A stretch of DNA of 64,000 nt from Candidatus Levybacteria bacterium RIFCSPHIGHO2_01_FULL_40_16 (GCA_001783805.1 MFNS01000005.1:1636-65635), one strand, 5' to 3'; numbered from the stretch's first letter, positions 13,885-60,539 are shown. A program made the numbers and translations. Notes: a model not told the origin generated them from the letters alone.

Positions 13885-14640
13885 TTAGTTCAAACCCTCC
13901 TTTTTGATTGCTTGTTTTCTCAAAAACCATCCGGCGAGACCGGTGGGGATCATCGCGATTAAGCCAAAAGCTTCCGGGCCGGTTTTAGGAGAGGTAGCTA
14001 CAGATACAGGAGAGTAGACCGGAAATCCGCCCTTGGTAGTTACAGTAGTTATACTCGGCGCGGCTTTTTCAATGCAGAATTGCGCGTTATCCTGGCTGAC
14101 ATTCGCGCTGTCAATCGTAGCAATTGCCTGATTTACTACACATACCACGGATCCCTGGGCAACAGGAATTTGATCCGCGTTGAGAATTCTGCCGACAATA
14201 GAATACTTACGTGTTTCATTTGGCGCGAGATTGGTAAGACTGAAAGAAAGAGTATTAGTATTGATATCAAAAGTTCCTGCTCCGGAGCCAAAACTGACGT
14301 ATTGAGGAAAAATATCTTTGACGTCAATCCTGGCAACATTATTATTGCCGGTGTTGGTTATAGATATTTGAAAAGTGGCAATGAATCCCGGTTGGTACTT
14401 GGAATCATTAATACTTAAGTTATCAATGAATTGATTTGTCTGGGGATTGAGTACGGTTTTATTGACTACGATATTATTAGTAGTAACACAGCTTTGTCCG
14501 CCGCCGTAAATTGGCTGGCACGAAGTGTCGGCAAAAGCAGTTTTTGAAAATTGAGAATTGAAAATTGAAAATTGAAAAACGGACAATATAATTAAGGCCG
14601 TTTTTAATATCCTGCCCATAAGTAGTGGTAAGATTATCAC
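13885..14640 (-). CDS. Surface protein with a DUF11-type repeat domain and a C-terminal sortase sorting signal (SPKTG)
   Basis: Signal peptide, then a DUF11-like segment (FQISITNTGNNNVARIDVKDIFPQYVSF...). The C-terminus carries SPKTGPE, a hydrophobic stretch (AFGLIAMIPTGLAGWFL) and a basic tail (RKQAIKKEG), which is LPXTG-like architecture. Confidence 0.65.
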   Translation of the reverse strand: MIILPLLMGRILKTALIILSVFQFSIFNSQFSKTAFADTSCQPIYGGGQSCVTTNNIVVNKTVLNPQTNQFIDNLSINDSKYQPGFIATFQISITNTGNNNVARIDVKDIFPQYVSFGSGAGTFDINTNTLSFSLTNLAPNETRKYSIVGRILNADQIPVAQGSVVCVVNQAIATIDSANVSQDNAQFCIEKAAPSITTVTTKGGFPVYSPVSVATSPKTGPEAFGLIAMIPTGLAGWFLRKQAIKKEGLN

Positions 14641-18680: not shown

Positions 18681-20795
18681 TTACTTGGAAGATTGGGTGG
18701 CGGTAGGAGGAGCGGGGATTTTAACCGGCGGATTTTGTGCAGGAAGTTGTGCTTCCGGTTTATTTACGTTAAGGGTTTGATTCTCATTGGTTGAAGGACT
18801 GACTGCCGCTTGGGCTTTGCCTTGGAGAACGGCAATCTCTTTGTCGATTTGATCTAAGGAAGTTTTGTCGTTAGCAACTAGAGTTCTTACCGCTTGGTAT
18901 TGTACTAAGGCATTTTGCAAATCTCCTTTTTGCTCCAGAGCATGACCTAAGTTATAATGTGAGTTTGCATAATCAGGCTTAAGAGAGACTGCGATTTGGA
19001 ACTGGCTTTGAGCATTGTCCCATTGCCCCATTTGATAATAAATACCTCCTAAGGCGATGTATTCCTGCGGGTTATTAGGATCAAGAGCGATTGCCTGCTG
19101 AGCAGTGGCAATCGCGAAACTCTCTGCATTTTGACCAAATCCGATCAAGCCTCGATATACGGAAGACAAATTTTGCCAGTTAAGATAGGTTTGAGGAGCG
19201 ACTGTCACTGCTCCTCGGGCGGCATTAATAGATTGCTGGATAAGTGTTGTGATATTTTGTTGGGTAGTTTGGCTTGGAGTAGAACCTGCCGACTGTTGAG
19301 ACGCAAGAGTATTAGCCAAAGCCAGATTTGTTTGAGAAAAAACCCGATAAAACCCATCCCGATACTGGAAATTTGAAATTGCCTGTGCTTGCAGCTGATA
19401 CGTCAAGGATCCATTATTTTGAGCTGCTGCCAGAAGAGATTTTTGGAAAGTCAGATCGGAAGTTACATAGGGGATACTAAAATAGCCTATAATTCCTACA
19501 ATTGCCAAGATGATCACGCCGGTAATTACGGGGAGAATTAGACTTTTCTCATTTTTTGCTGCAGGCGCTTCCATTGCGATAAGCCCTTTTCTAAGGGCGA
19601 CGATCCGAAGTTCAATGTCAAAAAATCTGTTTTGAGCTTTGTTGATTAAGCCTTGATTAGCGGCAAATAGTCCCAAGATTATGAAGAACAAGGTTTGCGA
19701 CGTAAAGCTTAAAGGCAAAAAAAGCGAAATCAGAAGCAGTACGATTACAGAAACAAGCATTTTATTTTGAGGACTGATGCGTACCTCCTTAAACACTCTA
19801 ATTAAGAGGAAGATGAAAGCGCATAAGCCCAATACCCCGGTTGTGGCTAAGAGTTCAAGTGCAAAATTTGAAGATTGGAAAAAAGTTAAATTCCAAAGAT
19901 CCGAATTTTGATTGAATGAAGCTTGTTTCCATTTTGAAAAATCAGTAGCATATGTTCCAAATCCGCTTCCCAGAAAAAAGCTCTGCGCTACGCGTCCCGT
20001 ATCCAGAGAAATTTCGGAAAAAGCCGTTTGAAATCCTGTTTCAATTGGCAGAAGAAGGGGTTTATTGAGCTTGAAGAGTGCATAAGTTGTAACAACAATG
20101 CCCATTAGAATCACCAAAGATGCTATTCCAAAGCTCACGGCTTTCGTCAATTCCCGACTGGACATGGAGGGATTAGCCGCATTTACAAAAGCGGCATCTG
20201 TTTGCGTCTTTGCTTTAAATTTAAGAAATCTGTAGATGTAATAAAAAGAGATGGCGAATACCAAAACCAGATAAATTTCCTGTTCGAGCATTGATCCGAG
20301 CGGCGTAAATGTCTGGACATGAGTTCCCGGGAAAGGCAGGATATAAATTTTAAAAAAAGACAAGGTTGCGGAGATAGATAATAAAACTGCGCCTATAATC
20401 AGAGAGGACATAAGGAAAAGAAGTGAGTTTTTGTCTTTAACTATATTAACAATTAGGAAAAATCCCAAGATCGCAAGGAAATAAGGGATAAAGGCTGTCA
20501 ATGCGTCTGCCCTATTGATTGCAAATAGGCTTGATAAAAAAGCGACCAGCGCCAGTGAAAGAACCGGAATGTCAAAAGCTGTTCTGTGTAACTTTACTGA
20601 TCTTTCAGCGAACATTCTTACGGCTTGAAGAACCAAAAGAACGAGAGCTACTCCTCCCAGCAACACCTGCTTGGGCAAAACAATAGGATTAGTAGTAATG
20701 GTCGTAAAAATAACCGGGAAGGCCATGAAGAGAATTCCCAAAAGGAATAAAGAAATATTCTGAACATATAAATTCAGTTCGTTTTTTTGTTCCAT
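18681..20795 (-). CDS. O-antigen ligase/polymerase (Wzy_C) family membrane protein with C-terminal TPR repeats
   Basis: About 11 TM helices in the N-terminal 440 aa. The C-terminal periplasmic region has TPR-like repeats (...ANSHYNLGHALEQKGDLQNALVQYQAV...). Confidence 0.7.
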   Translation of the reverse strand: MEQKNELNLYVQNISLFLLGILFMAFPVIFTTITTNPIVLPKQVLLGGVALVLLVLQAVRMFAERSVKLHRTAFDIPVLSLALVAFLSSLFAINRADALTAFIPYFLAILGFFLIVNIVKDKNSLLFLMSSLIIGAVLLSISATLSFFKIYILPFPGTHVQTFTPLGSMLEQEIYLVLVFAISFYYIYRFLKFKAKTQTDAAFVNAANPSMSSRELTKAVSFGIASLVILMGIVVTTYALFKLNKPLLLPIETGFQTAFSEISLDTGRVAQSFFLGSGFGTYATDFSKWKQASFNQNSDLWNLTFFQSSNFALELLATTGVLGLCAFIFLLIRVFKEVRISPQNKMLVSVIVLLLISLFLPLSFTSQTLFFIILGLFAANQGLINKAQNRFFDIELRIVALRKGLIAMEAPAAKNEKSLILPVITGVIILAIVGIIGYFSIPYVTSDLTFQKSLLAAAQNNGSLTYQLQAQAISNFQYRDGFYRVFSQTNLALANTLASQQSAGSTPSQTTQQNITTLIQQSINAARGAVTVAPQTYLNWQNLSSVYRGLIGFGQNAESFAIATAQQAIALDPNNPQEYIALGGIYYQMGQWDNAQSQFQIAVSLKPDYANSHYNLGHALEQKGDLQNALVQYQAVRTLVANDKTSLDQIDKEIAVLQGKAQAAVSPSTNENQTLNVNKPEAQLPAQNPPVKIPAPPTATQSSK

Positions 20796-20868: not shown

Positions 20869-23800
20869 TTAATTAACGATTAGCCAATTAAAGTCAATCG
20901 GGTGATTGGTGGGTGACTGCACTCCGACAGTAAATGACCCTTCGGCTCCGCTCGGGGCAGGTCCACGGGAAATTTGACGCATCAAGAATGGAGTTTGAGC
21001 GCTAGGTGTTCCAGCAGGAGTTATATAAATTACAGATTTGCTTGTTACCAAAGCGTTTCTAATCGTAATTTCCGATTGATAAGGGGCAATATTGGCAATT
21101 CCCGCAGAAGAACTGGCAATCACTTCTGTCGCAGAAACAGCCAAAACCGGTGCAACAAGGCTGAAATTAAGCTTGGCAAAAGTGCCTGATCCTGAAGCTG
21201 CTAAATCTCCGGCTTGATTTACAGACAAAACACTTGAACCGCTGGCATTATTCACAAGTAAGTCGGACGAAGGATGCGGAGAAAGAATATTTACAGCCAA
21301 CTTTCCGGTTACGGATAGATCTCCCTGAACCCTGATATTGCCTTGTGTATCAATGTAAATTAATCCGCCCATGATTGAAAGTCCTCCTTGTTTCAGACTT
21401 TGGAGGGATAAATCCGTGCCCAAAACTTCTAGGGAATTTTCTGTAATGTACATTATTCCTCCGATTGAAAGTCTGCCTGCAAGCGCCAGATCGGAAAGAC
21501 TGGTCGGACCAAAGACCATCAATCCTTGACTGAATTGAGCTCGCTCTGCGGTCAGATCGGGAATGTTGGAAAATTGAGCGGAGTAAGACGCAATATCCAT
21601 ATATGCAGAAACTTTCGCCTCAAGGCCGTCGATAGAGTCGGCAAGAATATTTTCTGCCCACAGGGTACCGCTGATGCTTGCATTACCTGTTGTTAAATTA
21701 CTACTATTAATAGTGCCGGAGAAAGAAGCATTACCCTGATCATCAATTTTGGCAATCGCAGACCCGCTTGAATTTTGGATTATGAATGATGAATCATGAA
21801 TCTCCGCAGAAGGCGTTGCCAGTTTCACTATTAACGATTTACCTAAAGGTGAAATAATATTGGTAGATAGCTGATCTATTCTCGCGACTGATGAGATTAT
21901 TCTCGGTTCTTGATTCATAATTCCTGATTCATTCACAACTCGAACAATATAATCTTTCAGACTCTGCCCACTAACTATTAGAGAATCGGAAGATACAATA
22001 AGAGTGTTCGTAATCACTTCAGAAGCGTTAATTAAACCTGCTACGGTCAGTGCTTGCGCATGAACGTAGCCTGCCTTAATATTTGCAGCTACGATTTCAA
22101 AAAATCCCCCGCTGTTGGTTAGAACTTCATTTTTAGAATTAGAAATAGAGTATCCGTTGGCGTTGGTACTGTTAATAATCAGGTCTCCGTTTTGGGCAAG
22201 ATAAGCTCCCGGGTCATACCAGGAGACATTAATTAAGATTGAGATTTTAACAACGCGAACAATATTTGATTTCAGAGGAATGTCCGGGAAACTGGTTTTG
22301 CTTCTATACTCCTTGCTTTCGGGATCATAATAGCCAACAACTTTTGATTCATCTATAATGCTTAAATTCTCCAAAGTCTTTCCTATAATTTGTCCTGCTT
22401 TTGTGGCTTTTATTGTAACTCCCGGGATATCCGATGACGTCAGCATATCTCCTGCTTTTATTTCTCCGTTGATGGTTGCAGCAAATGCTTCAACTTGTCC
22501 CGTAAGACCAACTGCTATGGAACCATTGCCTAGATTCTGTCCTCCCAGGAATGCAGGGCGCTCGGAAGCAACCCCAATAATTTTATTGTTATCGTTGCTG
22601 CATTTAACAATCAATCCGTTGTCTTTTAAACAGACAGCAGAGCCATATTCTATTACTTGGTTATTATCTTTTTTGAAATACTCGGCGAAATCTGCGGTTC
22701 CGCTGGTTGCATAAGTTACACCTGTTCCCGTGCTCCCTTGAATAGATCCGACAATACCGATTCCGGCCGTTTCAAAACTAATAAAGTGATTTGAAGCGGC
22801 AACGGCACTCGTTAAAGCATTGCCAAGCTTAACTATCAATCCATCCGCATCCGTCCCCGTATCGGTATTAAATATTTGAGCCGCAGCAGTTGCCAATTGA
22901 GAATCTTGAACATCAAGTTTAAATAAGGGCGTTGTTGTCCCGATTCCAACATTGCCTGCATTGAACCAAGAATTATTTGATCCCGCAATGTTTGTTCCGG
23001 TTAATTTGATTAAAGCTGAAGATGTTGAGGTTGCTCCTAATAATAAATCGAGCGTTGTGTTGCCGGGATAAATTGCCCCATTAGCTTGATTAAAAATGCT
23101 GGTGACGGAGCAGGAAGTAAAAAATGGAGTAGTTCCTCCCATCAGACAATCGGAGCTTGAGCCGGCGGACGCCTGATAGATCTTTCCCGAAGCATTTGTA
23201 TATAGAATACCACCGTTTGATGTTAAAGAAGAAAGAATTAGATTAGATTTTACTGTCGTATTTCCGCCTGAAATACCTAAATTAACGGTTGTGGCTGCGC
23301 CTCCCAAATTCAGGGTTGTAACAGTTGAATTTAGAAAATTGAAAGTGGTGGCTGCGCTCGTCAGGTCCCCGCCATTTACTACCAGGTCGCCGGTGAATTT
23401 GCCGGTTCCATCGTTCTCTACGACGAATTTGGCAGCCCCGGAGGTACTGGCGCTAATCAATGTCCCCGTTGAGTTTTGATTGATATACAGGGCTGCTTGC
23501 GCACTGGTGGTTGCCAATATTGCGACCGTATCATCAAACTCTACCGATCCCACGGCGGACACTAAATTGTTATTGTTTGTGCTATTCTGTATGGGTCTTG
23601 AGAGATCAATTTTTCCTAATCCATCAGGCGCGATTACGATATTGCTATTGCTTCCCGGAACAGTAGTCAAAGATAAAACTTTTCCCGAAAGCACAAGGCT
23701 TCCTCCAATTACCTGAAAGGTATGCGCTTGAGCGCCTGCGATACTTAAATTGCCGGAAGAATCCAAAGCTAAAACTACATTACTTACTTTGGCAGAATTG

Positions 23801-25314
23801 GTAATCGGTTCAAGGCCCTGCAGAGTTTCTGCGTTGCTGGCGAAAGGAACAGTTGCCAGTTCCTGACGAGGACGCAGCTCCGGACTATTTCCGACAGTAA
23901 TTCCTAAGAATAGCTTTGAATTTTGGCTAAAAACAGTGTCGGAAATAGGAGTTTTCTTTCCCAGAAGTACTGAAAAGATTCCATCCGAATCAGGCTTGAC
24001 AGCGTTGTTTTCCTGCCAGATGGCGGCTCCCGAGGATGCATTTTCATCATCATAAAGAGAAAAGAGAATGGCTGTTTCCTTAACAATTGGAGTTTCGGAT
24101 AAATCGGTAAGTTTTCCCTGGAAAGACAAGATTCGAGGCGGAGCGCTGGTAGAAGCTCCCAAGATAGCATTTTTTGCCTGGGTATTTGCAAAAAAACTGC
24201 TGTATATTCCAAAGCCAATTGCAGTAGCCAGTATCGTCAGTATTGCAAAGTGTAAATAATGTGTAAATGAGTATGAATGATATCTTTTGTACCAGTTTGG
24301 TCTGACGTGACGGATGTAATGCCAAATTCTTTGATGAACCGGTAGATAGCGGGTAGAAACATTCAGGGGAGCATAAAAATCCTTTTTGATGTTTGATATC
24401 TCCTCAGGCTGAGCTATTTGAAACGTCTTCGGGGCAGTCTTTTTAAATACCTTTTTTCCGGTGAGCTTCCAGAATAGATACCGTGTTGTTTCAAGTGTCT
24501 GAGCGAATGGCAAGATAAACAGATTATCAAAAAGAGAATTAACTCCTTTTATGCTTTTCTGCATTAGTCTTTCCGGTGGGAAAGAGGAATAAGCCGCCTT
24601 GTCATCCTGAGTACCCTTCGGGGTATCTTCGTCTTGTTTCGGGATTTCCTTAAGATTAGATGCTGGGATAAATTCAGCCTGACTTGAAGTCTGACCCGAA
24701 GGAATTAGCCTCTGGGTTTTGGCCCAGCCTATATAGCTTCTTAAGGAGGAAAGTTTTCTGTTAATAGTTGCGGGAGAGAATTTGGCTGCAGTTAGTCTTT
24801 GTTTATACTCTTCAATAATAGGAAAATTAATTTTGTTCAGCAAATTTCTGTCTGCTAGATTCCAGCTATACTTTACTAAAGCTACCTCCTCAAGCCAAGC
24901 AAAAAAACTTTTTACATCATTGATATAGTTTTTTATAGTAAGGTTAGTTTTTTTGGATTCCTTAAGAAAATTCTTGAAGCTTCTAATCATCCATGGATCA
25001 GCTTCAATTTTTTCTTTGTAGTCCGGAACAGGAAATAAATCAAAGATAATTATTCCCTGTGCCTTCAAGAAGTTAAAGAACTTGCGTAGGGAAGAAGTAT
25101 GTCTTTCCATTGAGCTTTCGGACAACCCCCTTTCCTGCTTATATTTTTGGAATATTTGTAAGGTAACTTTTGTCGGGTCAAAAGGAAATTTACATTCTTT
25201 CTCAAACCAGCTGATGAATTGTCCTATATCTGCCTTATAATTTTTCACGGTCAGCAAAGACCGTTTGGGTTTTTGATTTAAGAGAAATTCAACGAATTGC
25301 TGCGATAAATTCAT
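20869..25314 (-). CDS. Giant single-pass membrane protein: two cytoplasmic integrase-type SAM-like (core-binding) domains, one TM, and an ~1100-aa Thr/Ser/Gly/Asn-rich ectodomain
   Basis: Residues 1-200 hold two full copies of the Xer/phage-integrase N-terminal DNA-binding domain (LLTVKNYKADIGQFISWF...SLRKFFNFL and LTIKNYINDVKSFFAWL...SLRSYIGWA). No catalytic RHRY domain is present. A TM helix lies near aa 345-367 (FTHYLHFAILTILATAIGFGIYS). The rest has repetitive beta-rich adhesin-like composition. Confidence 0.75.
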   Translation of the reverse strand: MNLSQQFVEFLLNQKPKRSLLTVKNYKADIGQFISWFEKECKFPFDPTKVTLQIFQKYKQERGLSESSMERHTSSLRKFFNFLKAQGIIIFDLFPVPDYKEKIEADPWMIRSFKNFLKESKKTNLTIKNYINDVKSFFAWLEEVALVKYSWNLADRNLLNKINFPIIEEYKQRLTAAKFSPATINRKLSSLRSYIGWAKTQRLIPSGQTSSQAEFIPASNLKEIPKQDEDTPKGTQDDKAAYSSFPPERLMQKSIKGVNSLFDNLFILPFAQTLETTRYLFWKLTGKKVFKKTAPKTFQIAQPEEISNIKKDFYAPLNVSTRYLPVHQRIWHYIRHVRPNWYKRYHSYSFTHYLHFAILTILATAIGFGIYSSFFANTQAKNAILGASTSAPPRILSFQGKLTDLSETPIVKETAILFSLYDDENASSGAAIWQENNAVKPDSDGIFSVLLGKKTPISDTVFSQNSKLFLGITVGNSPELRPRQELATVPFASNAETLQGLEPITNSAKVSNVVLALDSSGNLSIAGAQAHTFQVIGGSLVLSGKVLSLTTVPGSNSNIVIAPDGLGKIDLSRPIQNSTNNNNLVSAVGSVEFDDTVAILATTSAQAALYINQNSTGTLISASTSGAAKFVVENDGTGKFTGDLVVNGGDLTSAATTFNFLNSTVTTLNLGGAATTVNLGISGGNTTVKSNLILSSLTSNGGILYTNASGKIYQASAGSSSDCLMGGTTPFFTSCSVTSIFNQANGAIYPGNTTLDLLLGATSTSSALIKLTGTNIAGSNNSWFNAGNVGIGTTTPLFKLDVQDSQLATAAAQIFNTDTGTDADGLIVKLGNALTSAVAASNHFISFETAGIGIVGSIQGSTGTGVTYATSGTADFAEYFKKDNNQVIEYGSAVCLKDNGLIVKCSNDNNKIIGVASERPAFLGGQNLGNGSIAVGLTGQVEAFAATINGEIKAGDMLTSSDIPGVTIKATKAGQIIGKTLENLSIIDESKVVGYYDPESKEYRSKTSFPDIPLKSNIVRVVKISILINVSWYDPGAYLAQNGDLIINSTNANGYSISNSKNEVLTNSGGFFEIVAANIKAGYVHAQALTVAGLINASEVITNTLIVSSDSLIVSGQSLKDYIVRVVNESGIMNQEPRIISSVARIDQLSTNIISPLGKSLIVKLATPSAEIHDSSFIIQNSSGSAIAKIDDQGNASFSGTINSSNLTTGNASISGTLWAENILADSIDGLEAKVSAYMDIASYSAQFSNIPDLTAERAQFSQGLMVFGPTSLSDLALAGRLSIGGIMYITENSLEVLGTDLSLQSLKQGGLSIMGGLIYIDTQGNIRVQGDLSVTGKLAVNILSPHPSSDLLVNNASGSSVLSVNQAGDLAASGSGTFAKLNFSLVAPVLAVSATEVIASSSAGIANIAPYQSEITIRNALVTSKSVIYITPAGTPSAQTPFLMRQISRGPAPSGAEGSFTVGVQSPTNHPIDFNWLIVN

Positions 25315-25965
25315 ATGATCCTTCGACTTTGCTCAGGATGACATGTCAGCTACGAAATTATACACATTATACTGATTATTTGATTATCTGAAAATAAATC
25401 TATACAACTAGAATAAATAATTTTAAGGAACTTGTCAATAGCCTAAATGAAGGAAAAGCTGATATATTGTGATATGTTCCGATATGTCTGTTGTTTAATC
25501 AAAGTCTTGTGAAAACTCGGTGAAAACTGATAAGTGTTAATCGGGGATGTATATTCGAAAAATATTCGTATATTTGAATATTCCCTGAAAATTAGGTATA
25601 TATCAGAATATGTCAATCTACATTATTTGTTGGTTGTGTTTTGGATCTTTTTCTTCCAGATTTCACGCTCACTCTTATTGTACTAATAAGCATATTTAGC
25701 AGTTATAAGTAGAAAGTGATAGGGGAAGTTTTGTTTCATTTTGGATTGTAGGGATAAGATTAATTTTATGCTAAATATAGATTATTAATTATCCAGTCGG
25801 ATTTTTGGTAAAAATTCAGCCCGTTAGTTCATTTAGCCATATTTAGTTTTTCTACTCCAAAATTGAGTATAAGTAATAATAATCGCTAAATTTGTCTTTT
25901 CACGGCTTAAAAATCCTAAAGGCTGAGATAAAGCAAGTCGCTTGAGTGCATGATTATCTTTAAAA

Positions 25966-26973
25966 TTATACTTGCATTCGATCTTTATTCGCATACAGCT
26001 TAAGTCTATTTCTAATCACGATTACTGCGATTACCACAATCACGATTACGATTAAGATTAAAAGAGGAAAAGCAAAGAAGTGAATGGTTCTTGTGAAAGT
26101 AGGGCCCTCATTAGACATGGAGATATTTAGAGTTGCCGTATAGAGTCCCAAAAGAAAGCTCTCGTTCCATAAGGCAATTGGGTGTTTAAAATCAAAAGCG
26201 TTTTTTGTTTTCGTATTTGAATTATCTTTTAACCTCAGACTCTGCATATAAACGCCATTGGGAATCGCCCGGGTTGAACCCGATAAAACATTTATAAGAG
26301 TTAAATCAAGCTTACCAATGCTCTGACCAAACATATTCTTTATGGTAATTTCACCCTTCGGTTCTATGAAATGAGCTCCTTTATTATTGACTCTGATCGT
26401 AAAGGGCACCGGACCTTTTTCAAAGAAGATATTGGATGAAAATTCCTCAATAGTTGCTTTGGGAATTTCCAAAGCGCCAACAGATAACAAAACATTGGCC
26501 GCAATTCCAAGCTGATTTACGGAAAAATTTGATTCAACCGGAAAGGAATTGACGGATACAAATACAACTGAAAAATAATAGTCTGATATATTTGTATCTT
26601 GCGGTATGTTTATATCTAAATTCAAGCTTTTCTGCTGCTGTGGTCCTAGCGTGATACTTCCGACTGGCACATTAGCATCCAAAATTTGGATGCTCTTAAA
26701 AATTTCTGAGGTTTCTTTGGAATATTCAAGTTCCCCATTTTCCCCTTTAGCCTTAAAGGGTTTGAGTTGAATCTGAAGCGTAATTGGTGTATCACCCTTG
26801 TTTTGAATATTTAGTGCGCTGGTTATATTCGCCGGAGGAATAACTTTGATTACGATTATCGGCGGGTCAATAGATAAACTCAAAGGCGCTGCGGCTGCCG
26901 TTTGAGTAATAAACAAATAACCCAATAAGCAAATAAGCAAATAGGAAATCTTAAATCTTAAATCATTAATCAT
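25966..26973 (-). CDS. Secreted protein with a C-terminal TM anchor (DUF916/CscA-like architecture)
   Basis: Signal peptide, then an Ig-like beta-rich region (PLSLSIDPPIIVIKVIPPANITSALNIQNKGDTPITLQIQLKPF), then a C-terminal hydrophobic helix and basic tail (LLILIVIVIVVIAVIVIRNRLK). Confidence 0.5.
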   Translation of the reverse strand: MINDLRFKISYLLICLLGYLFITQTAAAAPLSLSIDPPIIVIKVIPPANITSALNIQNKGDTPITLQIQLKPFKAKGENGELEYSKETSEIFKSIQILDANVPVGSITLGPQQQKSLNLDINIPQDTNISDYYFSVVFVSVNSFPVESNFSVNQLGIAANVLLSVGALEIPKATIEEFSSNIFFEKGPVPFTIRVNNKGAHFIEPKGEITIKNMFGQSIGKLDLTLINVLSGSTRAIPNGVYMQSLRLKDNSNTKTKNAFDFKHPIALWNESFLLGLYTATLNISMSNEGPTFTRTIHFFAFPLLILIVIVIVVIAVIVIRNRLKLYANKDRMQV

Positions 26974-26980
26974 AAATCTT

Positions 26981-27760
26981 TTAGAAGTTTGGTACTGCGA
27001 TATAGGTAATGATATTGCTGTAATTGCCTTGAGTTTGAGTTCCCGAAATATTTACTTTATAGGAGATACGGACAGCTTTATCATTCGAACCAATGCCTGC
27101 CATAATTGAGGTAGGATCGTCATTACTGGCAAGGTCGGGAAAATGTTTGTAAGAATTAGTTTTGGCAAATGAACTGTCGCAGTCAGTGCCGGTGACATTG
27201 TCACAGCGATATCCGAAACCATAGGTAAGCGCATTGATCCATTCGGATGCATTTTCAGTCCCGCACTGTCCGTTGTCGCAAGTTGTATCGGGAATAAAGG
27301 TTTTACTGACCGAAGCCGAGTTTAACTCGGTCGGGGGAATAATCGTTAAGGGATCATTCTCAAATACCAATACCGAGTACCCATAAACTGTCAGGCTATG
27401 CGTAGTTAAATCAACCGTACGGATTATGGGATTGGTCGGACTAAGAGCCCCAAAGTCAATGAGGCCAGAAGAAAGCAGAATGGAAAAAGGAATAGTAGCG
27501 GCAAGGTTTTCAAAGCCTGTTCTGACTTTAAAATTCACGCCTTCTGAAGTTATGGGATTAAGATCGCCGACCGTGGATCTCAAGCCGTAGTCTTTCCCGG
27601 CAGTCACACCGGAAAGCGTATTAAAGCCCTGCATTTTTATGATGTAACTGTCATTAGACATGGTTTGTGCGCCTACAGGCGCAGCGGTAGTATGTATGAT
27701 GAACGCAATAATAAAGAATATTTTTAAATTTCGATACATAATACTGAATACATAATACAT
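26981..27760 (-). CDS. Secreted beta-rich protein with a Cys-rich segment (possibly WxL-like)
   Basis: Signal peptide and a cysteine cluster (CDNGQCGTEN...YRCDNVTGTDCDSS). The C-terminus ends ...ITYIAVPNF. Co-operonic with the pilin-LamG genes. Confidence 0.5.
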   Translation of the reverse strand: MYYVFSIMYRNLKIFFIIAFIIHTTAAPVGAQTMSNDSYIIKMQGFNTLSGVTAGKDYGLRSTVGDLNPITSEGVNFKVRTGFENLAATIPFSILLSSGLIDFGALSPTNPIIRTVDLTTHSLTVYGYSVLVFENDPLTIIPPTELNSASVSKTFIPDTTCDNGQCGTENASEWINALTYGFGYRCDNVTGTDCDSSFAKTNSYKHFPDLASNDDPTSIMAGIGSNDKAVRISYKVNISGTQTQGNYSNIITYIAVPNF

Positions 27761-27841
27761 GATACCAAATCATTCCAATCGTAGGGAATCTTGGCTAAAA
27801 TTGCAACCGCTTTTCCTGCAGGCTGAACGTGCAAAGCCTTT

Positions 27842-28786
27842 TTAATATTGTCTGATTGCCAACCGGTGCTCTTTTAAGCCTTGGGCATAAAGCTGTTGGA
27901 TTTGAGAAAGCGAAAAAGCTTGTTTGTAAATGCGCACATCATCAATAAAACCATTGAAGGAGCGATTGCTTGGGCCATACGGATATGAACCGATCCCCAC
28001 TAGTGCATTGTTGCTGTCCATAGTTAACCCAAGCACATCAGTGCGGTTTTGAACCAACTTTCCATCCAGCCAGAGTTCCATGCCCCTTTTTTTAGTGTCG
28101 AAAACCCCCACTACATGGTGCCATTCATTTGTGGTAGGAATTACCTTACCGACCCCATAGTAATTTCCACCGTTATTGAAAGAAGCAGTAAAAGCAAGCC
28201 CGGGGCCGCCTTCATCATTTGTTCTTTCGTCATTTCTTAATATATAATTTGCCGTTGAAAGCTCTTTCGTTAAAATATGGTAACGACCAGTTGCGCCAAA
28301 ATCTCTTTTAGTGTAAAACCAAGCTTCAACGGTAATTTCGTTAGTGGCATCCAAGGCATTGGAATCAGCTATTTGCACATAATCATCCACTCCGTCAAAA
28401 CTGTATGCCCTGTTTGCTCGCCCCCTTCTATCTGCGTCTAGGATAGGACCATTTACCGTACCGTTATTCCCGTATCCCGAAGTATCCTTAGCAGAGCCCT
28501 GAATCTCCTCATCAAATGTCCATTCTCCCACCAGATTAATAGCCAGAGAATTTTGTACGCTGGCTGCAAATGTTTCCGCCTTAGCCAGATTGGCAGAATT
28601 AATTTTCGCTACAGGATTAATAGCCGCGATAACTCCGGCTGCGAGAATTCCTAAGACTGCGATAACGATGAGAAGTTCAATAAGAGTAAAACCAGGTGCA
28701 GTCCTGTACCTGGTGAAACCTTTTTGTTTCTTTATGCAATCAATCATTAATTTAAGTTTAAGCGTAAATAAAAAGGAAGTCAACAA
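27842..28786 (-). CDS. Type IV pilin-like protein (prepilin N-terminal methylation motif) fused to a LamG/concanavalin-like domain
   Basis: GFTLIELLIVIAVLGILAAG prepilin motif, then a LamG-like jelly roll (GEWTFDEE...GYGNNGTV...AYSFDGVDDYVQI...). The C-terminal FIDDVRIYKQAFSLSQIQQLYAQGL is shared with the paralogue. Confidence 0.8.
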   Translation of the reverse strand: MLTSFLFTLKLKLMIDCIKKQKGFTRYRTAPGFTLIELLIVIAVLGILAAGVIAAINPVAKINSANLAKAETFAASVQNSLAINLVGEWTFDEEIQGSAKDTSGYGNNGTVNGPILDADRRGRANRAYSFDGVDDYVQIADSNALDATNEITVEAWFYTKRDFGATGRYHILTKELSTANYILRNDERTNDEGGPGLAFTASFNNGGNYYGVGKVIPTTNEWHHVVGVFDTKKRGMELWLDGKLVQNRTDVLGLTMDSNNALVGIGSYPYGPSNRSFNGFIDDVRIYKQAFSLSQIQQLYAQGLKEHRLAIRQY

Positions 28787-28788
28787 AG

Positions 28789-29706
28789 CTAGAAATGAAA
28801 AATATTTGAGGTTAACAAATGGCTGGGTAATCCTTGAGCGTAAAGCTGCTGGGCTTGGGAAAGCGAAAAAGCTTGTTTATAAATACGCACATCATCAATT
28901 GAACCATTGAAATCATAATTAGTAGGATCGATACCGTAATAGCGGCCTATATAGCTATCGTATGTACCAGAATTAAAATCTCTCCCCGAATAAGTCCTTA
29001 TATTTATCAGCGCACCGTTTCTGTAATGCTTTATCTGCTTAATGTCGTTATTTAAAGTTACCGCAACAAAATACCATTTGCCCAATACCCATGGAACAGC
29101 AGTAGAATTATATTGTATCCAGCCACTTGAGTCTCCTACTTCGAGCCATAAAGTATCGTTACTTTGTATGCCCCACCAGAAATGTTGAGCTGCGGCTTCA
29201 GGTCCTTTATTTATTATTGTTGGAATATACTTCCTATCGTTCATCTTTATCCATGCAGTAAGGGTGAACCGTGAAAGACTATTCAAGCTTGTGCGATTTC
29301 CAATGCTCACATAGTCACCATTTCCATCAAAACCAAGCGCCTTATTACTCCTTTCCCTTCTGTCTGTTGTTGTGATTACACCACTTCCCGCTATTGAACC
29401 GTTATTTCCATAGCCTGACGTATCTGTTACGGGACTAAGAGAACCATCATCAAATGTCCATTCTCCCACCAGATCAAAAGCGAGATTGTTTTGCATGCTT
29501 GCCGAGAATGTCTCTGCTACGGCCAGATTGGCAGAGCTAATCTTTCCTGCAGGATCTATAGCTATGAGCACTCCTCCTCCCAAAACTCCCACCACTGCTA
29601 TGACTATTAAAAGCTCGATGAGGGTAAAACCACGTTCATGAAAACTGAATGTGGCAAACCCTTTTGCGCGCAGGATCAATTTCATGGAATAAGTTAAGTT
29701 AAGCAC
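28789..29706 (-). CDS. Type IV pilin-like protein with a LamG-like domain (paralogue)
   Basis: GFTLIELLIVIAVVGVLGGG prepilin motif, GEWTFDDGSLSPVTDTSGYGNNGSI..., and the same C-terminal SIDDVRIYKQAFSLSQAQQLYAQGL block. A 2-nt gap separates it from the downstream paralogue. Confidence 0.8.
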   Translation of the reverse strand: MLNLTYSMKLILRAKGFATFSFHERGFTLIELLIVIAVVGVLGGGVLIAIDPAGKISSANLAVAETFSASMQNNLAFDLVGEWTFDDGSLSPVTDTSGYGNNGSIAGSGVITTTDRRERSNKALGFDGNGDYVSIGNRTSLNSLSRFTLTAWIKMNDRKYIPTIINKGPEAAAQHFWWGIQSNDTLWLEVGDSSGWIQYNSTAVPWVLGKWYFVAVTLNNDIKQIKHYRNGALINIRTYSGRDFNSGTYDSYIGRYYGIDPTNYDFNGSIDDVRIYKQAFSLSQAQQLYAQGLPSHLLTSNIFHF

Positions 29707-32943: not shown

Positions 32944-34170
32944 TTGTTAATGAATTCAAAGCTGCTCGTATTCCTTTTGATAATTCTTAGCTTCAGATTC
33001 TATTATTTTTATCGCAACCAACCGCAATTAATGGATGGACAGATGCTTAGTTTTGAGGCGGCAATTCTATCTCAACCGCAGGCGGTTAACAGTCAACAGA
33101 TAATTGTTGCTAATTATCAGAATCAATCCTTCGGCGGGCTCAGGATCAGAATCGCAACCGGCCGTTTTCCGGAATTTAGTTATGGAGATTTCGTGCGTAT
33201 TTCAGGTTCCATAAGCAGTAAGAATGGTCGAGTGCTAATGTATTTTCCCAAAATTGAAGCAATTAATAATTCTTCCAATATCTTGCAGTCAAGCTTGAAA
33301 AACATAAATATACTCCGGCAAAAACTGATTATCTTATTTTCCAAAACACTTCCATCGCCGTCTTCAAGTCTTCTTCTGGGAATAATTTTTGGAATAAAAG
33401 AGCAAATGCCCAAAGATTTTTCTGACAACTTAAGAACCTCGGGAGTTTTTCATGTGATTGCCGCATCCGGAATGAACGTTACTTTAATCGGGGGATTTAT
33501 CAGTACGTTTTTTGCCTTTTTCGTTAAAAGGCAAATTGCAATTGGCTTAAGTATTTTAGGAATTTTATTTTACGCAGTTTTGGCAGGGCTTGAACCGTCA
33601 ATTATCAGAGCATCAATCATGGGAATTCTGGTTTTTTCTGCTCAAATTATGGGCAGGCAAACTCTGGCCATAAATGGTTTGACTTTGGCAGGGTTTGGAA
33701 TGCTTTTTATTGATCCAATGCTCCTGTCGGATGTGGGTTTTCAGCTTTCCTTTGCGGCAACACTCGGACTTATTCTTATTCCAAAAATTAGGGCGATTGG
33801 GAGAATTTGGGTGATTGGCAATGACATAAATACTACAATTGCTGCACAAGTTGCCACTTTGCCGATTCTTCTGGCGAATTTTGGAACTTATTCAATCTAT
33901 TCTATCCTAGTCAATGGATTGGTGCTTTGGACAGTGCCGATATTAATGATGATCGGAGGAATCGGAGCTGTCCTAGGGCTGATTTTAGAGCCTTTTGGGC
34001 AATTATTAATCTATTTATCCTTCCCGCTTTTGCTTTATTTTGAAACAATAGTAAATTTCTTCGGAGAAATTGGCGGAATAATGGCACTTAAAAATTTTCC
34101 TTGGCAATTTACTGTCGGATATTATTGCTTGTTAATTTCGGTATTGCTTATTTTTAAAAGAGGAAAATGA
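32944..34170 (+). CDS. comEC: ComEC/Rec2 DNA-uptake channel (DUF4131 + Competence domain)
   Basis: Multi-TM with LRTSGVFHVIAASGMNVTLIGG, the ComEC competence-domain signature. Confidence 0.85.
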   Translation: MLMNSKLLVFLLIILSFRFYYFYRNQPQLMDGQMLSFEAAILSQPQAVNSQQIIVANYQNQSFGGLRIRIATGRFPEFSYGDFVRISGSISSKNGRVLMYFPKIEAINNSSNILQSSLKNINILRQKLIILFSKTLPSPSSSLLLGIIFGIKEQMPKDFSDNLRTSGVFHVIAASGMNVTLIGGFISTFFAFFVKRQIAIGLSILGILFYAVLAGLEPSIIRASIMGILVFSAQIMGRQTLAINGLTLAGFGMLFIDPMLLSDVGFQLSFAATLGLILIPKIRAIGRIWVIGNDINTTIAAQVATLPILLANFGTYSIYSILVNGLVLWTVPILMMIGGIGAVLGLILEPFGQLLIYLSFPLLLYFETIVNFFGEIGGIMALKNFPWQFTVGYYCLLISVLLIFKRGK

Positions 34171-34201: not shown

Positions 34202-35080
34202 ATGAGAAAGTTTTTGTTAATTTCAAGTGTTCTTCTCTTTTTGTTGGGCTGCATCTTTGTATATCAAAACATAATCTATAATGACAAAAAATTGCATGTG
34301 GTGATTTGCAATGTCGGACAGGGGGATGCGATTTTCGTCAGAACGCCAAGCGGATCGGATATTCTAATTGACGGCGGGCCGGACGATTCGGTTTTAAATT
34401 GTTTGGGAAAACATATGCCTTTCTGGGACAGGACTTTGGAACTTGTGATGCTTTCCCATCCGCACACATATCATTTTATGGGTCTCTTTTCGGTTTTACA
34501 AAATTATAAAGTCACAGCATTTGCGTCAGAGAATTTAAGCAACAAAACTACAGGATTTAGCAATCTGATGGATAAAATTAAAACGCAAAACATTCCGATA
34601 AAATTTCTTTTTGCAGGAGACAGATTCGTTTTGAAAGACGGAATTATGCTGAAAATTGTCGGACCGACACAAGAGTTTCTTAATCGGACAAGTCCCGGAG
34701 GCACAATCGGGGAGAGCAGTGAATTTGCATCTTTGGAAACCCTAGTTAAATATAAAAAGTTTTCTGTATTGTTGACGGGGGACAGTCAGGTAGCGGAACT
34801 TGGAGATATCCTTCCCCCGACGCTTCGGGGTCAGGATGACATCCCTTTATCGGTTCTTCAAGTGCCGCATCATGGATCAAGATTCGGCTTAACCGCAGAC
34901 ATTCTGGATGTTTTAAGCCCAAAACTCGCGGTGATTTCTGTCGGTAAAAACAACAAATACGGTCATCCAACGCCATTCATTTTAGACTTATTAAAATCCG
35001 CAAACATCAAAACCCTGCGGACGGACCAAATCGGGGATATTGAGATAGTTTCGGATGGGGCGAGTTGGAAGACAAGATAA
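34202..35080 (+). CDS. ComEC metallo-beta-lactamase domain protein (separate ORF with its own TM)
   Basis: N-terminal TM, then VVICNVGQGDAIFVRTPSGSDILIDGGP...VMLSHPHTYH, the MBL HxHxDH region. It begins 31 nt after the ComEC membrane ORF with its own ATG. Confidence 0.8.
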   Translation: MRKFLLISSVLLFLLGCIFVYQNIIYNDKKLHVVICNVGQGDAIFVRTPSGSDILIDGGPDDSVLNCLGKHMPFWDRTLELVMLSHPHTYHFMGLFSVLQNYKVTAFASENLSNKTTGFSNLMDKIKTQNIPIKFLFAGDRFVLKDGIMLKIVGPTQEFLNRTSPGGTIGESSEFASLETLVKYKKFSVLLTGDSQVAELGDILPPTLRGQDDIPLSVLQVPHHGSRFGLTADILDVLSPKLAVISVGKNNKYGHPTPFILDLLKSANIKTLRTDQIGDIEIVSDGASWKTR

Positions 35081-58252: not shown

Positions 58253-59653
<1,401 letters not shown>

Positions 59654-60520: not shown

Positions 60521-60539
60521 AATGGTTTTTTGTCTTTCT

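What the first reader, a model, noticed from the sequence alone, without database searches (positions are those of the whole stretch)
25966..29706. Four-gene surface operon: two LamG-fused type IV pilin-like proteins plus a secreted Cys-rich protein and a TM-anchored Ig-like protein (CscA/WxL-like module)
Two tandem paralogues have the prepilin cleavage/methylation motif (GFTLIELLIVIAV...) fused to a concanavalin/LamG-type jelly-roll lectin-like domain and share a conserved C-terminal block (IDDVRIYKQAFSLSQ.QQLYAQGL). After gaps of 2, ~80 and 7 nt come a secreted beta-rich protein with a cysteine cluster, then a protein with a signal peptide, an Ig-like region and a C-terminal TM anchor. That last architecture resembles DUF916/CscA proteins of Firmicutes WxL cell-surface complexes. 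Pilin-lectin fusions alongside a Csc-like pair suggest a dedicated host-attachment apparatus, relevant to an episymbiotic lifestyle.
Basis: partly seen in the sequence, partly recalled or inferred. Interest (0 to 1): 0.65.

Follow-up and report, generated by a model that had tools for sequence, protein, structure and literature searches.

The report
Two pilus systems side by side
The four genes are real but are not one machine: two lectin-tipped type IV pilin genes were inserted, in this species only, in front of a conserved pilin-plus-chaperone pair that is a distant, minimal relative of the 'Pam' pilus recently found in ultrasmall CPR bacteria.

Summary
All four minus-strand ORFs exist as described in this Candidatus Levybacteria (CPR) genome.

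- **Genes A and B** are type IV prepilins fused to a Laminin_G_3 domain (Pfam E about 1e-25). They are 44-50% identical to four LamG pilins in the same genome's type IV pilus cluster. None of 84 related loci carries them beside gene C.
- **Gene C** is a Sec-secreted protein with four invariant Cys. Its C-terminal domain matches the NCBIfam Pam-pilin models significantly but below their cutoffs. Its predicted fold resembles donor-strand-exchange pilins.
- **Gene D** has two Ig-like domains and a C-terminal membrane helix. Its model resembles RbmA, solved WxLIP and chaperone-usher chaperones.
- **Conserved unit:** LeuRS | C-D-(extra Pam-like pilins and a second D paralogue in half of the loci)-giant tail-fibre-like protein-Wzy/TPR protein. 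C keeps its own conserved promoter-like element.

There is no WxL partner, and the four genes are not a conserved operon. I read the locus as a new minimal variant of a known (2026) kind, next to ordinary modular pilins. Filament assembly was not tested.

The parts
28789..29706 (-). Gene A: modular type IV prepilin. It has a class III signal peptide (..HERG|FTLIE), an alpha-1 helix and a Laminin_G_3 module. The likely true start is the ATG at 29685 (298 aa).
   Evidence: Pfam N_methyl 31.5 bits and Laminin_G_3 89.7 bits. TIGR02532 29.3 bits. 44-50% identical to four LamG pilins of the type IV pilus cluster.
27842..28786 (-). Gene B: paralogue of A (43% identity) with the same architecture. The likely true start is the ATG at 28747 (301 aa, public locus tag A3B47_01770).
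   Evidence: P0241 is 100% identical.
27778..27806 (-). Promoter-like element TTGCAA-17 nt-TACGAT in the B-C spacer. The same element lies upstream of the C orthologues in relatives, where the divergent LeuRS gene is the neighbour.
   Evidence: Read directly from the sequence and compared with L001, L003, L005 and L006. It matches 8 of 12 consensus positions and is below the simple scan threshold. Function was not tested.
26981..27760 (-). Gene C: Sec-secreted single-domain Pam-type pilin-like protein. The signal peptide probably ends ..PVGA|QTMSN. Residues 33-88 form a partly conserved N-terminal segment that is disordered in the monomer model. Residues about 90-259 form a beta domain with four invariant Cys. 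The C-terminus ends in the conserved ..TYIAVPNF.
   Evidence: NCBIfam CPR_pilus_PamT E 9.7e-9 and CPR_Pam_pilin_C E 4.3e-6, both below cutoff. 46 of 46 family members match the domain model. hhalign to the C-terminal domain of two-domain pilins in related loci gives 87% probability, E 3.9e-6. AF2 model plus Foldseek hits to CfaB, CS17, CanA, TasA, Csu and FimA.
25966..26973 (-). Gene D: membrane-anchored protein with two Ig-like domains (signal peptide, domain 1 about 30-165, domain 2 about 170-301, TM helix 302-320). It is the putative strand-donating chaperone or anchor for C. The hairpin at 131-166 is the conservation hot spot.
   Evidence: AF2 pLDDT 85. Foldseek hits RbmA 1.3e-11, WxLIP 1.5e-11 and CsuC/CfaA/Caf1M/EcpB 1e-8 to 1e-7. 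PF06030 scores 25.6 bits, and 31 of 47 members match it. 8 of 25 invariant columns fall in 131-166, p = 0.002. D lies next to C in nearly all related loci that extend far enough.
25315..25965 (-). A 651-nt D-E spacer. Its 3' half carries conserved promoter-like and repeated motifs (TTGACA-17-TATTCT, tandem GTATAAT, TTTTCAC x2, ATATCA x3). This points to a separate transcription unit for the downstream gene.
   Evidence: Alignment with 11 related loci. Promoter-like matches at 25438-25410 and 25394-25366. No Rfam match.
20869..25314 (-). It has two cytoplasmic Phage_int_SAM-like domains, one TM helix (354-374) and about 1100 aa of extracellular tail-fibre-like region.
   Evidence: Pfam Phage_int_SAM_1 and Peptidase_G2 IMC. 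NCBIfam Bdello_MAT_N. Synteny. Topology.
18681..20795 (-). Gene F: polytopic O-antigen-ligase-like (Wzy_C, weak match) plus TPR protein, found downstream of E in the related loci that extend far enough.

Best explanation
The locus is a juxtaposition of parts from two different surface-filament systems.

**(1) A and B are modular type IV pilins.** Each has a class III signal peptide and an alpha-1 helix joined directly to a ConA/LamG jelly-roll. They are dispersed paralogues of four LamG pilins encoded in this organism's type IV pilus cluster. That cluster also encodes PilB, PilT, PilC, a major pilin, a prepilin peptidase, minor pilins and PilM. By inference, the prepilin peptidase cleaves A and B, and the type IV pilus then displays them as minor or tip subunits that bind a ligand, probably a glycan on a host cell. 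They were inserted between leuS and gene C in this species only.

**(2) C and D are the minimal core of a Levybacterial Pam-like pilus module.** This module is conserved at this chromosomal site.
- C is exported by Sec and forms a Cys-stabilised pilin-type beta domain homologous to the C-terminal domain of Pam pilins.
- D stays anchored in the cytoplasmic membrane by its C-terminal helix.
- By inference, D inserts its conserved 131-166 hairpin into C's incomplete sandwich (donor-strand complementation). It would either hold C at the surface or hand it to the next subunit's donor strand.
- In half of the related genomes the same module also encodes two-domain Pam-like shaft pilins and a second D paralogue. 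This genome has only C and D within the 64 kb.

C-D has its own conserved promoter-like element. The giant tail-fibre-like protein E and the Wzy/TPR protein F follow as a further conserved unit.

**Shown:** domain identities, homology, synteny, insertion and fold resemblance. **Inferred:** strand complementation, filament formation, ligand binding and transcription units.
For: **A and B**
- They pass the Pfam and TIGRFAM cutoffs.
- They are 44-50% identical to four tandem LamG pilins in L085. That contig also carries PilB, PilT, PilC, peptidase A24, minor pilins and PilM. It encodes a protein identical to A3B47_02775, which has the same locus-tag prefix as B (A3B47_01770).
- The family is widespread in CPR and is already annotated as prepilin/LamG.
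- A modular pilin with a ConA-like lectin module binds glycans in S. sanguinis PilC (PMC9934059).

**Insertion**
- No tblastn hit to A or B, and no prepilin motif, occurs in any of 84 related loci.
- In the closest other species the leuS-C gap is 87 nt (L005).
- The TTGCAx-17-TACGAT element is conserved upstream of C.

**C**
- It matches the Pam-pilin models in 46 of 46 (domain model) and 41 of 46 (PamT model) family members.
- hhalign links it to the C-terminal domain of the roughly 475-aa pilins in expanded loci. Those pilins themselves match the Pam_pilin_C model at up to 40.8 bits.
- Both C and those pilins end in ..TY[IV]A.P.F.
- Top Foldseek hits to the C model are donor-strand fibre subunits.
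- The four invariant Cys parallel the paired Cys of PamA and PamB.

**D**
- Its architecture (PapD-like fold plus C-terminal TM helix) is the one described for PamC, PamD and PamR.
- Conservation is enriched in the hairpin.

**Module**
- Of 64 loci with C, D and E, 32 are minimal and 32 expanded; 24 of the expanded ones have a second D paralogue.
- A tail-fibre-like neighbour is also reported for pam operons.
Against: - C scores far below the curated NCBIfam cutoffs (35 vs 240 bits; 26.9 vs 55 bits).
- The C model is only moderately confident (pLDDT 68), and its Foldseek hits are weak (E 3e-4, TM about 0.5).
- D's structural hits do not separate chaperone (PamC/D), anchor (PamR/RbmA) and WxLIP. 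No D-family member matches any Pam model in NCBIfam.
- No two-domain shaft pilin was found in the 64 kb. A pilus made here is therefore unproven, and PamT was described as lacking a donor strand.
- No terminator-like site lies between B and C, so read-through co-transcription of all four genes in this species is possible.
- No complex modelling could be run.
Confidence: 0.65

Rival explanations
1. One reading: all four genes form one operon that encodes a single dedicated attachment apparatus, in which LamG pilins work together with a Csc/WxL-type surface complex.
For: The genes share a strand and have short gaps of 2-81 nt. No terminator-like site occurs on the minus strand within the cluster. 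D resembles WxLIP. All four proteins are surface proteins.
Against: A and B are absent from all 84 related C-D loci. C has its own conserved promoter-like element. No WxL domain and no DUF3324 is detected. A and B belong to a six-member pilin family centred on the type IV pilus cluster. The two gene pairs use different export and assembly pathways.
Confidence: 0.1
2. C-D is a non-filamentous, WxL/WxLIP-like surface complex. The membrane-anchored D permanently holds one copy of C on the cell surface by strand insertion. C then acts as a displayed adhesin rather than a pilus subunit, at least in the minimal loci.
For: PF06030 similarity occurs in 31 of 47 D homologues. Solved WxLIP and WxLIP-WxL complexes are top structural hits. 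WxLIP is predicted to complete the WxL sandwich with a hairpin strand (PMC10599100). Half of the loci, including this one, lack two-domain shaft pilins. PamT-type proteins were described as lacking a linker strand.
Against: C is homologous to the Pam pilin C-terminal domain and not to WxL. Pfam WxL gives no match at E <= 1, and no WxL chain appears in C's top 50 Foldseek hits. C keeps conserved N-terminal islands (QTMSNxxY and VNFKVxTGF) that are disordered in the monomer, as expected for a donor strand. Sister genomes build the full multi-pilin locus around the same C-D pair.
Confidence: 0.2
3. C and D serve the neighbouring giant protein E. D would chaperone C onto the membrane-anchored tail-fibre-like protein as a cap, adaptor or base, so the functional unit would be C-D-E-F rather than a Pam-type pilus.
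For: C, D and E are syntenic wherever the contig extends far enough, and F follows E in many loci. A tail-fibre-like protein is central in pam neighbourhoods. F is a Wzy_C-like protein that could glycosylate surface proteins, and PamA carries an O-linked modification.
Against: E has its own conserved promoter region behind a 650-nt spacer. In expanded loci further pilin genes separate D from E. There is no sequence evidence for a donor strand or a Pam-type domain in E.
Confidence: 0.1

Closest known systems
Pam pilus of Ca. Mycosynbacter amalyticus (Troman et al., bioRxiv 10.64898/2026.03.03.709456): PamT, PamA/B/E pilins, PamC/D chaperones, PamR anchor
   Same: It is CPR-specific. The pilins are Sec-exported with a C-terminal truncated-Ig domain and paired Cys. 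The partner proteins have two Ig-like domains and a C-terminal TM helix. There is no usher. A tail-fibre-like gene lies nearby. C aligns end to end with the PamT model, and related loci carry two-domain pilins plus two D paralogues.
   Different: All matches fall well below the curated cutoffs. This locus holds only one single-domain pilin and one D protein. No PamA/B-like shaft pilin lies within 64 kb. ATP synthase is about 30 kb away rather than adjacent. The genomic anchor differs (leuS-comEA-comEC). The lineage (Levybacteria) is not named in the paper. D's N-terminal domain shows DUF916 similarity, which the paper does not mention.
WxL / Csc cell-surface clusters of Firmicutes (WxLIP = DUF916 + DUF3324 + TM helix; PMC10599100; PDB 9i1y, 9i25)
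   Same: D has the WxLIP architecture: signal peptide, two Ig-like domains and a C-terminal TM helix. It shows sub-threshold PF06030 similarity and a top structural match. The proposed mechanism is also the same, with a hairpin strand completing the partner's beta sandwich.
   Different: There are no WxL-domain proteins, although the cluster definition requires at least two. There is no DUF3324 sequence match and no LPXTG partner. The partner C is a Pam-type pilin domain. The organism is a CPR bacterium.
Chaperone-usher pili (archaic Csu, CFA/I class 5, Caf1, type 1/P pili)
   Same: C's model resembles CfaB, CS17, CsuA/B and FimA. D's model resembles CsuC, CfaA, Caf1M and EcpB. The conserved aromatic C-terminus of the pilin and the conserved hairpin at the end of D's domain 1 parallel subunit-chaperone donor-strand complementation.
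   Different: There is no usher and no outer membrane. The chaperone is membrane-anchored. There is no detectable sequence similarity.
Modular type IV pilins with a lectin module: S. sanguinis PilC (PMC9934059); jelly-roll PilX1 of Saccharibacteria TM7x (PMC12206443)
   Same: A and B have a class III signal peptide and a short pilin moiety fused to a ConA/LamG-type jelly-roll. They belong to a set of minor pilins linked to a type IV pilus machinery cluster.
   Different: There is no Ig-like linker module. The pilin moiety is reduced to essentially the alpha-1 helix. The genome holds six paralogues, two of them displaced from the type IV pilus cluster. The ligand is unknown.

Membership tests
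Type IV pilin (class III signal peptide) - genes A and B | G-1 / F+1 / E+5 cleavage-methylation motif followed by a hydrophobic alpha-1 helix | tested here: met
   RG|FTLIELLIVIAV and PG|FTLIELLIVIAV. PF07963 scores 31.5 bits (cutoff 21.2) and TIGR02532 scores 29 bits (cutoff 16.3). Hydrophobic segment found.
Type IV pilin (class III signal peptide) - genes A and B | Prepilin peptidase and type IV pilus assembly machinery in the same genome | tested here: met
   L085 encodes PilB, PilT, PilC, peptidase A24 and PilM around four LamG pilin paralogues. It carries a protein identical to A3B47_02775, which shares its locus-tag prefix with B. None of these genes lies in the 64-kb window itself.
Type IV pilin (class III signal peptide) - genes A and B | Cleavage by the peptidase and incorporation into a filament | not testable with these tools
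   Requires biochemistry or cryo-EM.
Laminin_G_3 / ConA-like lectin module (modular pilin) | LamG jelly-roll domain C-terminal to the pilin moiety | tested here: met
   PF13385 scores 89.7 and 91.6 bits (cutoff 27.6), covering profile positions 1-149 and 1-151 of 151.
Laminin_G_3 / ConA-like lectin module (modular pilin) | Carbohydrate or other ligand binding | not testable with these tools
   Inferred only by analogy with S. sanguinis PilC.
Pam pilus system (CPR) | Pilin with the Pam C-terminal truncated-Ig domain (NCBIfam NF058581) | tested here: inconclusive
   C scores E 4.3e-6 and 26.9 bits (cutoff 55) over profile positions 3-148 of 148. 46 of 46 family members match, best E 2e-10. The match is significant but below the curated cutoff.
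Pam pilus system (CPR) | Equivalence to PamT (NF058579, equivalog) | tested here: not met
   35 bits against a cutoff of 240, although the alignment is end to end (13-259 vs 6-241 of 241). C is a distant homologue, not an equivalog.
Pam pilus system (CPR) | Sec signal peptide and paired cysteines in the pilin | tested here: met
   N-terminal hydrophobic segment with ..PVGA|Q. Cys161, 166, 186 and 194 are invariant in 46 sequences.
Pam pilus system (CPR) | PapD/FimC-like two-domain chaperone with a C-terminal TM helix (PamC/D), or RbmA-like anchor (PamR) | tested here: inconclusive
   The D model (pLDDT 85) matches RbmA (1.3e-11) and chaperone-usher chaperones (1e-8) and has a TM helix. This fits the class, but the three roles cannot be told apart. 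No direct comparison with the PamC, PamD or PamR sequences was possible.
Pam pilus system (CPR) | Two-domain major pilins (PamA/B/E type) in the operon | tested here: not met
   An HMM of the roughly 475-aa pilins from related loci finds nothing in the window. Such pilins are present in related loci. The rest of this genome was not searchable.
Pam pilus system (CPR) | Assembly by donor-strand exchange into a filament | not testable with these tools
WxL / Csc cluster | WxLIP PGBD (DUF916, PF06030) | tested here: inconclusive
   25.6 bits against a cutoff of 27.3 for D. 31 of 47 homologues match at E < 0.01, best 1.1e-7. Foldseek to 9i1y gives E 1.5e-11.
WxL / Csc cluster | WxLIP HBD (DUF3324) | tested here: not met
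   No Pfam match in any of the 47 D-family members at E <= 0.01. The structural alignment to WxLIP does span both domains.
WxL / Csc cluster | At least two WxL-domain proteins adjacent to WxLIP (definition in PMC10599100) | tested here: not met
   No WxL match for A, B, C or E at E <= 1. No WxL chain appears among C's top 50 structural hits.
Chaperone-usher pilus | Outer-membrane usher | tested here: not met
   No usher domain was found in any ORF scanned in the window or the related loci.

The most novel reading that the evidence does not exclude
D-type proteins of CPR (including the Pam chaperones and anchor) and the Firmicutes WxLIP (DUF916) proteins may form one superfamily of membrane-anchored, usher-independent strand-donating chaperones of monoderm envelopes. 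The two-gene C-D pair found in half of the Levybacteria loci would then be the minimal core of that machine. It would either polymerise C into a one-pilin fibre or display C as a capped adhesin. If so, WxL clusters and Pam pili would share one mechanism, and possibly a common origin.
Probability: 0.3. Interest if true: 0.7.

Novelty: new variant of a known kind. Interest (0 to 1): 0.45.

Why it matters
How ultrasmall CPR bacteria attach to host cells is largely unknown. This locus suggests that Levybacteria carry, at a fixed chromosomal site, a very divergent and often minimal version of the newly described Pam pilus. Curated models and PamA/B-based surveys would miss it.

Its membrane-anchored assembly factor also links Pam pili to the WxL/WxLIP surface complexes of Firmicutes. 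If the C-D pair alone builds or displays a structure, it would be the simplest usher-free donor-strand system known and a tractable target for structural work.

The LamG pilins matter less. They are ordinary modular pilins, although six paralogues in a small (under 1 Mb) genome suggest a heavy investment in ligand-specific type IV pilus tips.

Tried and rejected
- **PDB sequence searches.** C, D, E and the C and D profiles found nothing useful. The Pam structures are not in that copy.
- **NCBIfam on the D family.** No Pam chaperone model matched.
- **Rfam on 20-30.5 kb.** No match.
- **Promoter/terminator scan.** Counts were no higher than in shuffled sequence. No minus-strand terminator lies within the cluster, so the scan neither proves nor excludes an operon.
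- **TafC hit of A and B.** This is only a shared LamG-type domain with a haloarchaeal Tat-fimbria protein, far below cutoff, so I rejected it as a classification.
- **Type II secretion pseudopilin reading of A and B.** The GspG/GspH hits cover only the N-terminal motif and fall below cutoff, and the paralogues sit in a type IV pilus cluster with PilT and PilM.
- **C as a WxL protein.** There is no sequence or structural support.
- **Shared 'M[IV]NDLR' signal peptide on C and D.** It is confined to a few close relatives, so I did not treat it as a general sorting signal.

Full report
**1. Observation**

The window carries four consecutive minus-strand ORFs:
- A, 29706-28789, 305 aa
- B, 28786-27842, 314 aa
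- C, 27760-26981, 259 aa
- D, 26973-25966, 335 aa

With the longest ORFs the gaps are 2, 81 and 7 nt. Public gene calls start A and B at internal ATGs, giving 298 and 301 aa.

A and B both contain G|FTLIELLIVIAV. They pass the curated cutoffs for the prepilin N-methylation motif and for Laminin_G_3 (E 2.8e-25 and 7e-26). They are 43% identical. All six LamG pilins of this organism share it.

C has a signal sequence, four Cys invariant across 46 homologues, and a beta-rich model. D has a signal sequence, two beta-sandwich domains and a C-terminal TM helix. The description is therefore correct.

**2. Source organism and context**

B is 100% identical to A3B47_01770 of Candidatus Levybacteria bacterium RIFCSPLOWO2_01_FULL_39. 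Homologues of C and D are almost all from Levybacteria, in the class Microgenomatia of the CPR.
- **Upstream,** on the other strand, lie leuS, comEA and a split comEC.
- **Downstream of D,** after a 651-nt spacer, lies gene E. It is a 1481-aa protein with two Phage_int_SAM-like domains, one TM helix and a tail-fibre-like ectodomain (Bdello_MAT_N and Peptidase_G2 IMC matches).
- **After E** comes gene F, a Wzy_C-like/TPR membrane protein.
- **No type IV pilus machinery gene** lies in the window among the ORFs scanned. A and B are the only prepilin-motif ORFs in the 64 kb.

**3. A and B are ordinary modular type IV pilins and a species-specific insertion**

A contig (L085) encodes a protein identical to A3B47_02775, from the same genome as B. 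It carries, in order: PilB, PilT, PilC, a 180-aa pilin, a PMT-type glycosyltransferase, four tandem LamG pilins, the A24 prepilin peptidase, three small minor pilins, a 662-aa N_methyl+LamG+SdrD_B protein, and PilM. A and B are 44-50% identical to those four LamG pilins over their whole length.

The architecture is common across CPR and is already annotated as prepilin/LamG. It corresponds to the 'modular pilins' defined in Streptococcus sanguinis. There, PilC carries a ConA-like lectin module that binds glycans and sits in a tip complex (PMC9934059). A jelly-roll minor pilin is also noted in Saccharibacteria TM7x (PMC12206443).

Neither A/B homologues (tblastn E <= 1e-5) nor any prepilin motif occurs within +/-10 kb of C in 84 related loci (about 80 species representatives plus four contigs). 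In the closest other species (L005, C 75% identical) only 87 nt separate leuS from C.

**4. C-D is the conserved unit and belongs with the Pam pilus**

*Matches to the Pam models.* NCBIfam release 20 contains models derived from a 2026 preprint that describes Pam pili of Ca. Mycosynbacter amalyticus (10.64898/2026.03.03.709456).
- C matches CPR_pilus_PamT end to end (E 9.7e-9).
- C also matches the Pam pilin C-terminal domain model (E 4.3e-6).
- Both matches are far below the curated cutoffs.
- All 46 sampled C homologues match the domain model, and 41 of 46 match PamT.

*Model of C.* The AF2 model is confident only for residues about 90-259. Its best PDB matches are almost exclusively donor-strand-exchange fibre subunits: CfaB, CS17, cannulae CanA, TasA, Csu, FimA and the PapG pilin domain. 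The scores are weak.

*Model of D.* The D model (pLDDT 85) matches RbmA, solved Enterococcus WxLIP and chaperone-usher chaperones (CsuC, CfaA, Caf1M, EcpB, YadV). The preprint describes PamC/D as PapD/FimC-like chaperones with a C-terminal TM helix, and PamR as an RbmA-like TM-anchored terminator. D fits that class, but I cannot assign it to one of these roles.

*Synteny.* The order leuS | C - D - ... - E - F holds throughout the 84 loci wherever the contig reaches. Of 64 loci with C, D and E, 32 are 'minimal' like the window and 32 are 'expanded'.
- In 24 expanded loci a second D paralogue follows a gene of about 475 aa.
- In the two expanded loci examined (L015, L058), these longer proteins, one to three per locus, end in a Pam_pilin_C match of up to 40.8 bits.
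- hhalign aligns their C-terminal domain to C (87% probability, E 3.9e-6). Both families end ..TY[IV]A.P.F at the stop codon.

Expanded loci thus reproduce the published pam operon logic: a single-domain pilin, two-domain pilins and two TM-anchored chaperone-like proteins. An HMM of the two-domain pilins finds nothing in the window. This genome region holds only the single-domain pilin and one D protein.

A profile of the C family finds 1,026 cluster representatives (E <= 1e-3) among 1.84 billion proteins. Most of the top 150 are 215-270 aa long.

**5. Transcription units (from sequence only)**

The 81-nt B-C spacer contains TTGCAA-17 nt-TACGAT (27806-27778). The same element, with the same spacing, precedes C in L001, L003, L005 and L006, where leuS is the upstream neighbour. 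This indicates that A-B was inserted upstream of an existing C promoter.

The simple scan did not call this element (8 of 12 consensus positions) and found no terminator between B and C. Read-through from A-B therefore cannot be excluded.

The D-E spacer keeps its length of about 650 nt in minimal loci. Its 3' half carries conserved promoter-like and repeated motifs. This argues that E is transcribed on its own.

**6. Proposed mechanism (inferred)**

- C is exported by Sec and probably cleaved after ..PVGA.
- Its Cys-stabilised domain would be an incomplete Ig-like sandwich.
- D remains in the membrane through helix 302-320.
- The most conserved part of D is the hairpin 131-166 at the end of domain 1. 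It consists of strand 131-140, a low-confidence loop and strand 156-165. It holds 8 of 25 invariant columns (p = 0.002).
- This is the position of the donated G1 strand in chaperone-usher chaperones (established knowledge). It also resembles the hairpin that AlphaFold inserts into WxL in WxLIP (PMC10599100).
- C's mature N-terminus has conserved islands (QTMSNxxYIIK and VNFKVxTGFENL) in a segment the monomer model leaves disordered. That is what a donor strand would look like.

D may chaperone a homopolymer of C, cap and display single C molecules, or hand C to another partner. This cannot be decided here.

**7.

The idea is partly right.
- D's N-terminal domain scores 25.6 bits on PF06030 (cutoff 27.3), and 31 of 47 homologues match.
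- Solved WxLIP is a top structural hit.
- DUF3324 is not detected by sequence.
- No WxL-domain protein is present, although the published cluster definition needs at least two.
- C is a Pam-type domain.

The Pam preprint does not mention WxL or DUF916. A link between Pam-type TM-anchored chaperones and WxLIP is therefore the most interesting lead from this work. It rests on sub-threshold sequence matches and fold similarity.

**8. Verdict**

A and B are known-type modular pilins. C-D is a divergent, minimal variant of a pilus system described only in 2026 and would escape curated annotation. The 'four-gene apparatus' is a species-specific juxtaposition. Interest is moderate.

Noticed in passing
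window 20869-25314 (-): A 1481-aa protein starts with two tyrosine-recombinase N-terminal SAM-like domains but has no catalytic domain. One TM helix and about 1100 aa of tail-fibre-like ectodomain follow (Bdello_MAT_N and Peptidase_G2 IMC matches). It is syntenic with C-D in related Levybacteria loci wherever the contig extends. A cytoplasmic DNA-binding-type domain on a surface fibre is odd.
   Followed up: partly
window 25315-25965 (-): The non-coding D-E spacer is unusually long (651 nt) for a compact CPR genome. Its length is conserved in minimal loci. The 3' half holds conserved TTGACA-17-TATTCT, tandem GTATAAT, two TTTTCAC and three ATATCA repeats, which could be regulator sites. There is no Rfam match.
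   Followed up: partly
L009-L083 (63 of the 84 related loci), directly upstream of C; absent from the window: A conserved polytopic membrane protein of about 210 aa (MKxLxQSxxLxxSF...FFLLYFL...) precedes C on the same strand in most Levybacteria. It is missing in this genome's clade. No Pfam or NCBIfam family matches it, and it may be a further component of the module.
   Followed up: partly
window 13885-14640 (-): A 251-aa DUF11-repeat protein ends in SPKTG, then a hydrophobic stretch, then RKQAIKK. This looks like a sortase-type sorting signal, so it is probably a sortase-anchored surface protein.
   Followed up: no
window 12621-13883 (-) and 7751-8941 (+): Two DUF2934-containing, Lys/Glu/Ala-rich proteins share the block EPT[EQ]EEI[KQ]LAAYLDW..DGKP.GNDGKSYYY.AQNRLR. 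The 12-14 kb region has a strong AT skew of -0.34. Only the first of the two has a C-terminal hydrophobic anchor.
   Followed up: no
window 26973-26880 (-); L003, L006, L010 upstream ends of C: D in the window carries the signal peptide MINDLRFKISYLLICLLGYLFIT. Nearly the same signal peptide sits on C, not D, in L003 and L006, and on both C and D in L010. This suggests exchange of 5' ends between the two genes within this clade.
   Followed up: partly
window 18681-20795 (-): A 704-aa protein has about 10 TM segments, a weak Wzy_C (O-antigen ligase) match and C-terminal TPR repeats. It is syntenic after E. Given the O-linked modification reported on PamA, it might glycosylate surface proteins, but this is speculative.
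   Followed up: no
window 32944-34170 and 34202-35080 (+): ComEC is split into separate Competence-domain and metallo-beta-lactamase ORFs. The same split is seen in related loci (L001, L003).
   Followed up: no
L085 6937-8217 and 15258-17246: The type IV pilus cluster of the same organism contains a PMT-family glycosyltransferase between the major pilin and the LamG pilins. It also holds a 662-aa N_methyl+LamG+SdrD_B protein that could be the tip adhesin.
   Followed up: no
window 58253-62012 (-): The F1 ATP synthase alpha, gamma and beta genes lie about 30 kb from the C-D pair. The Pam preprint reports ATP synthase genes as conserved neighbours of pam operons, but here they are not adjacent.
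   Followed up: no
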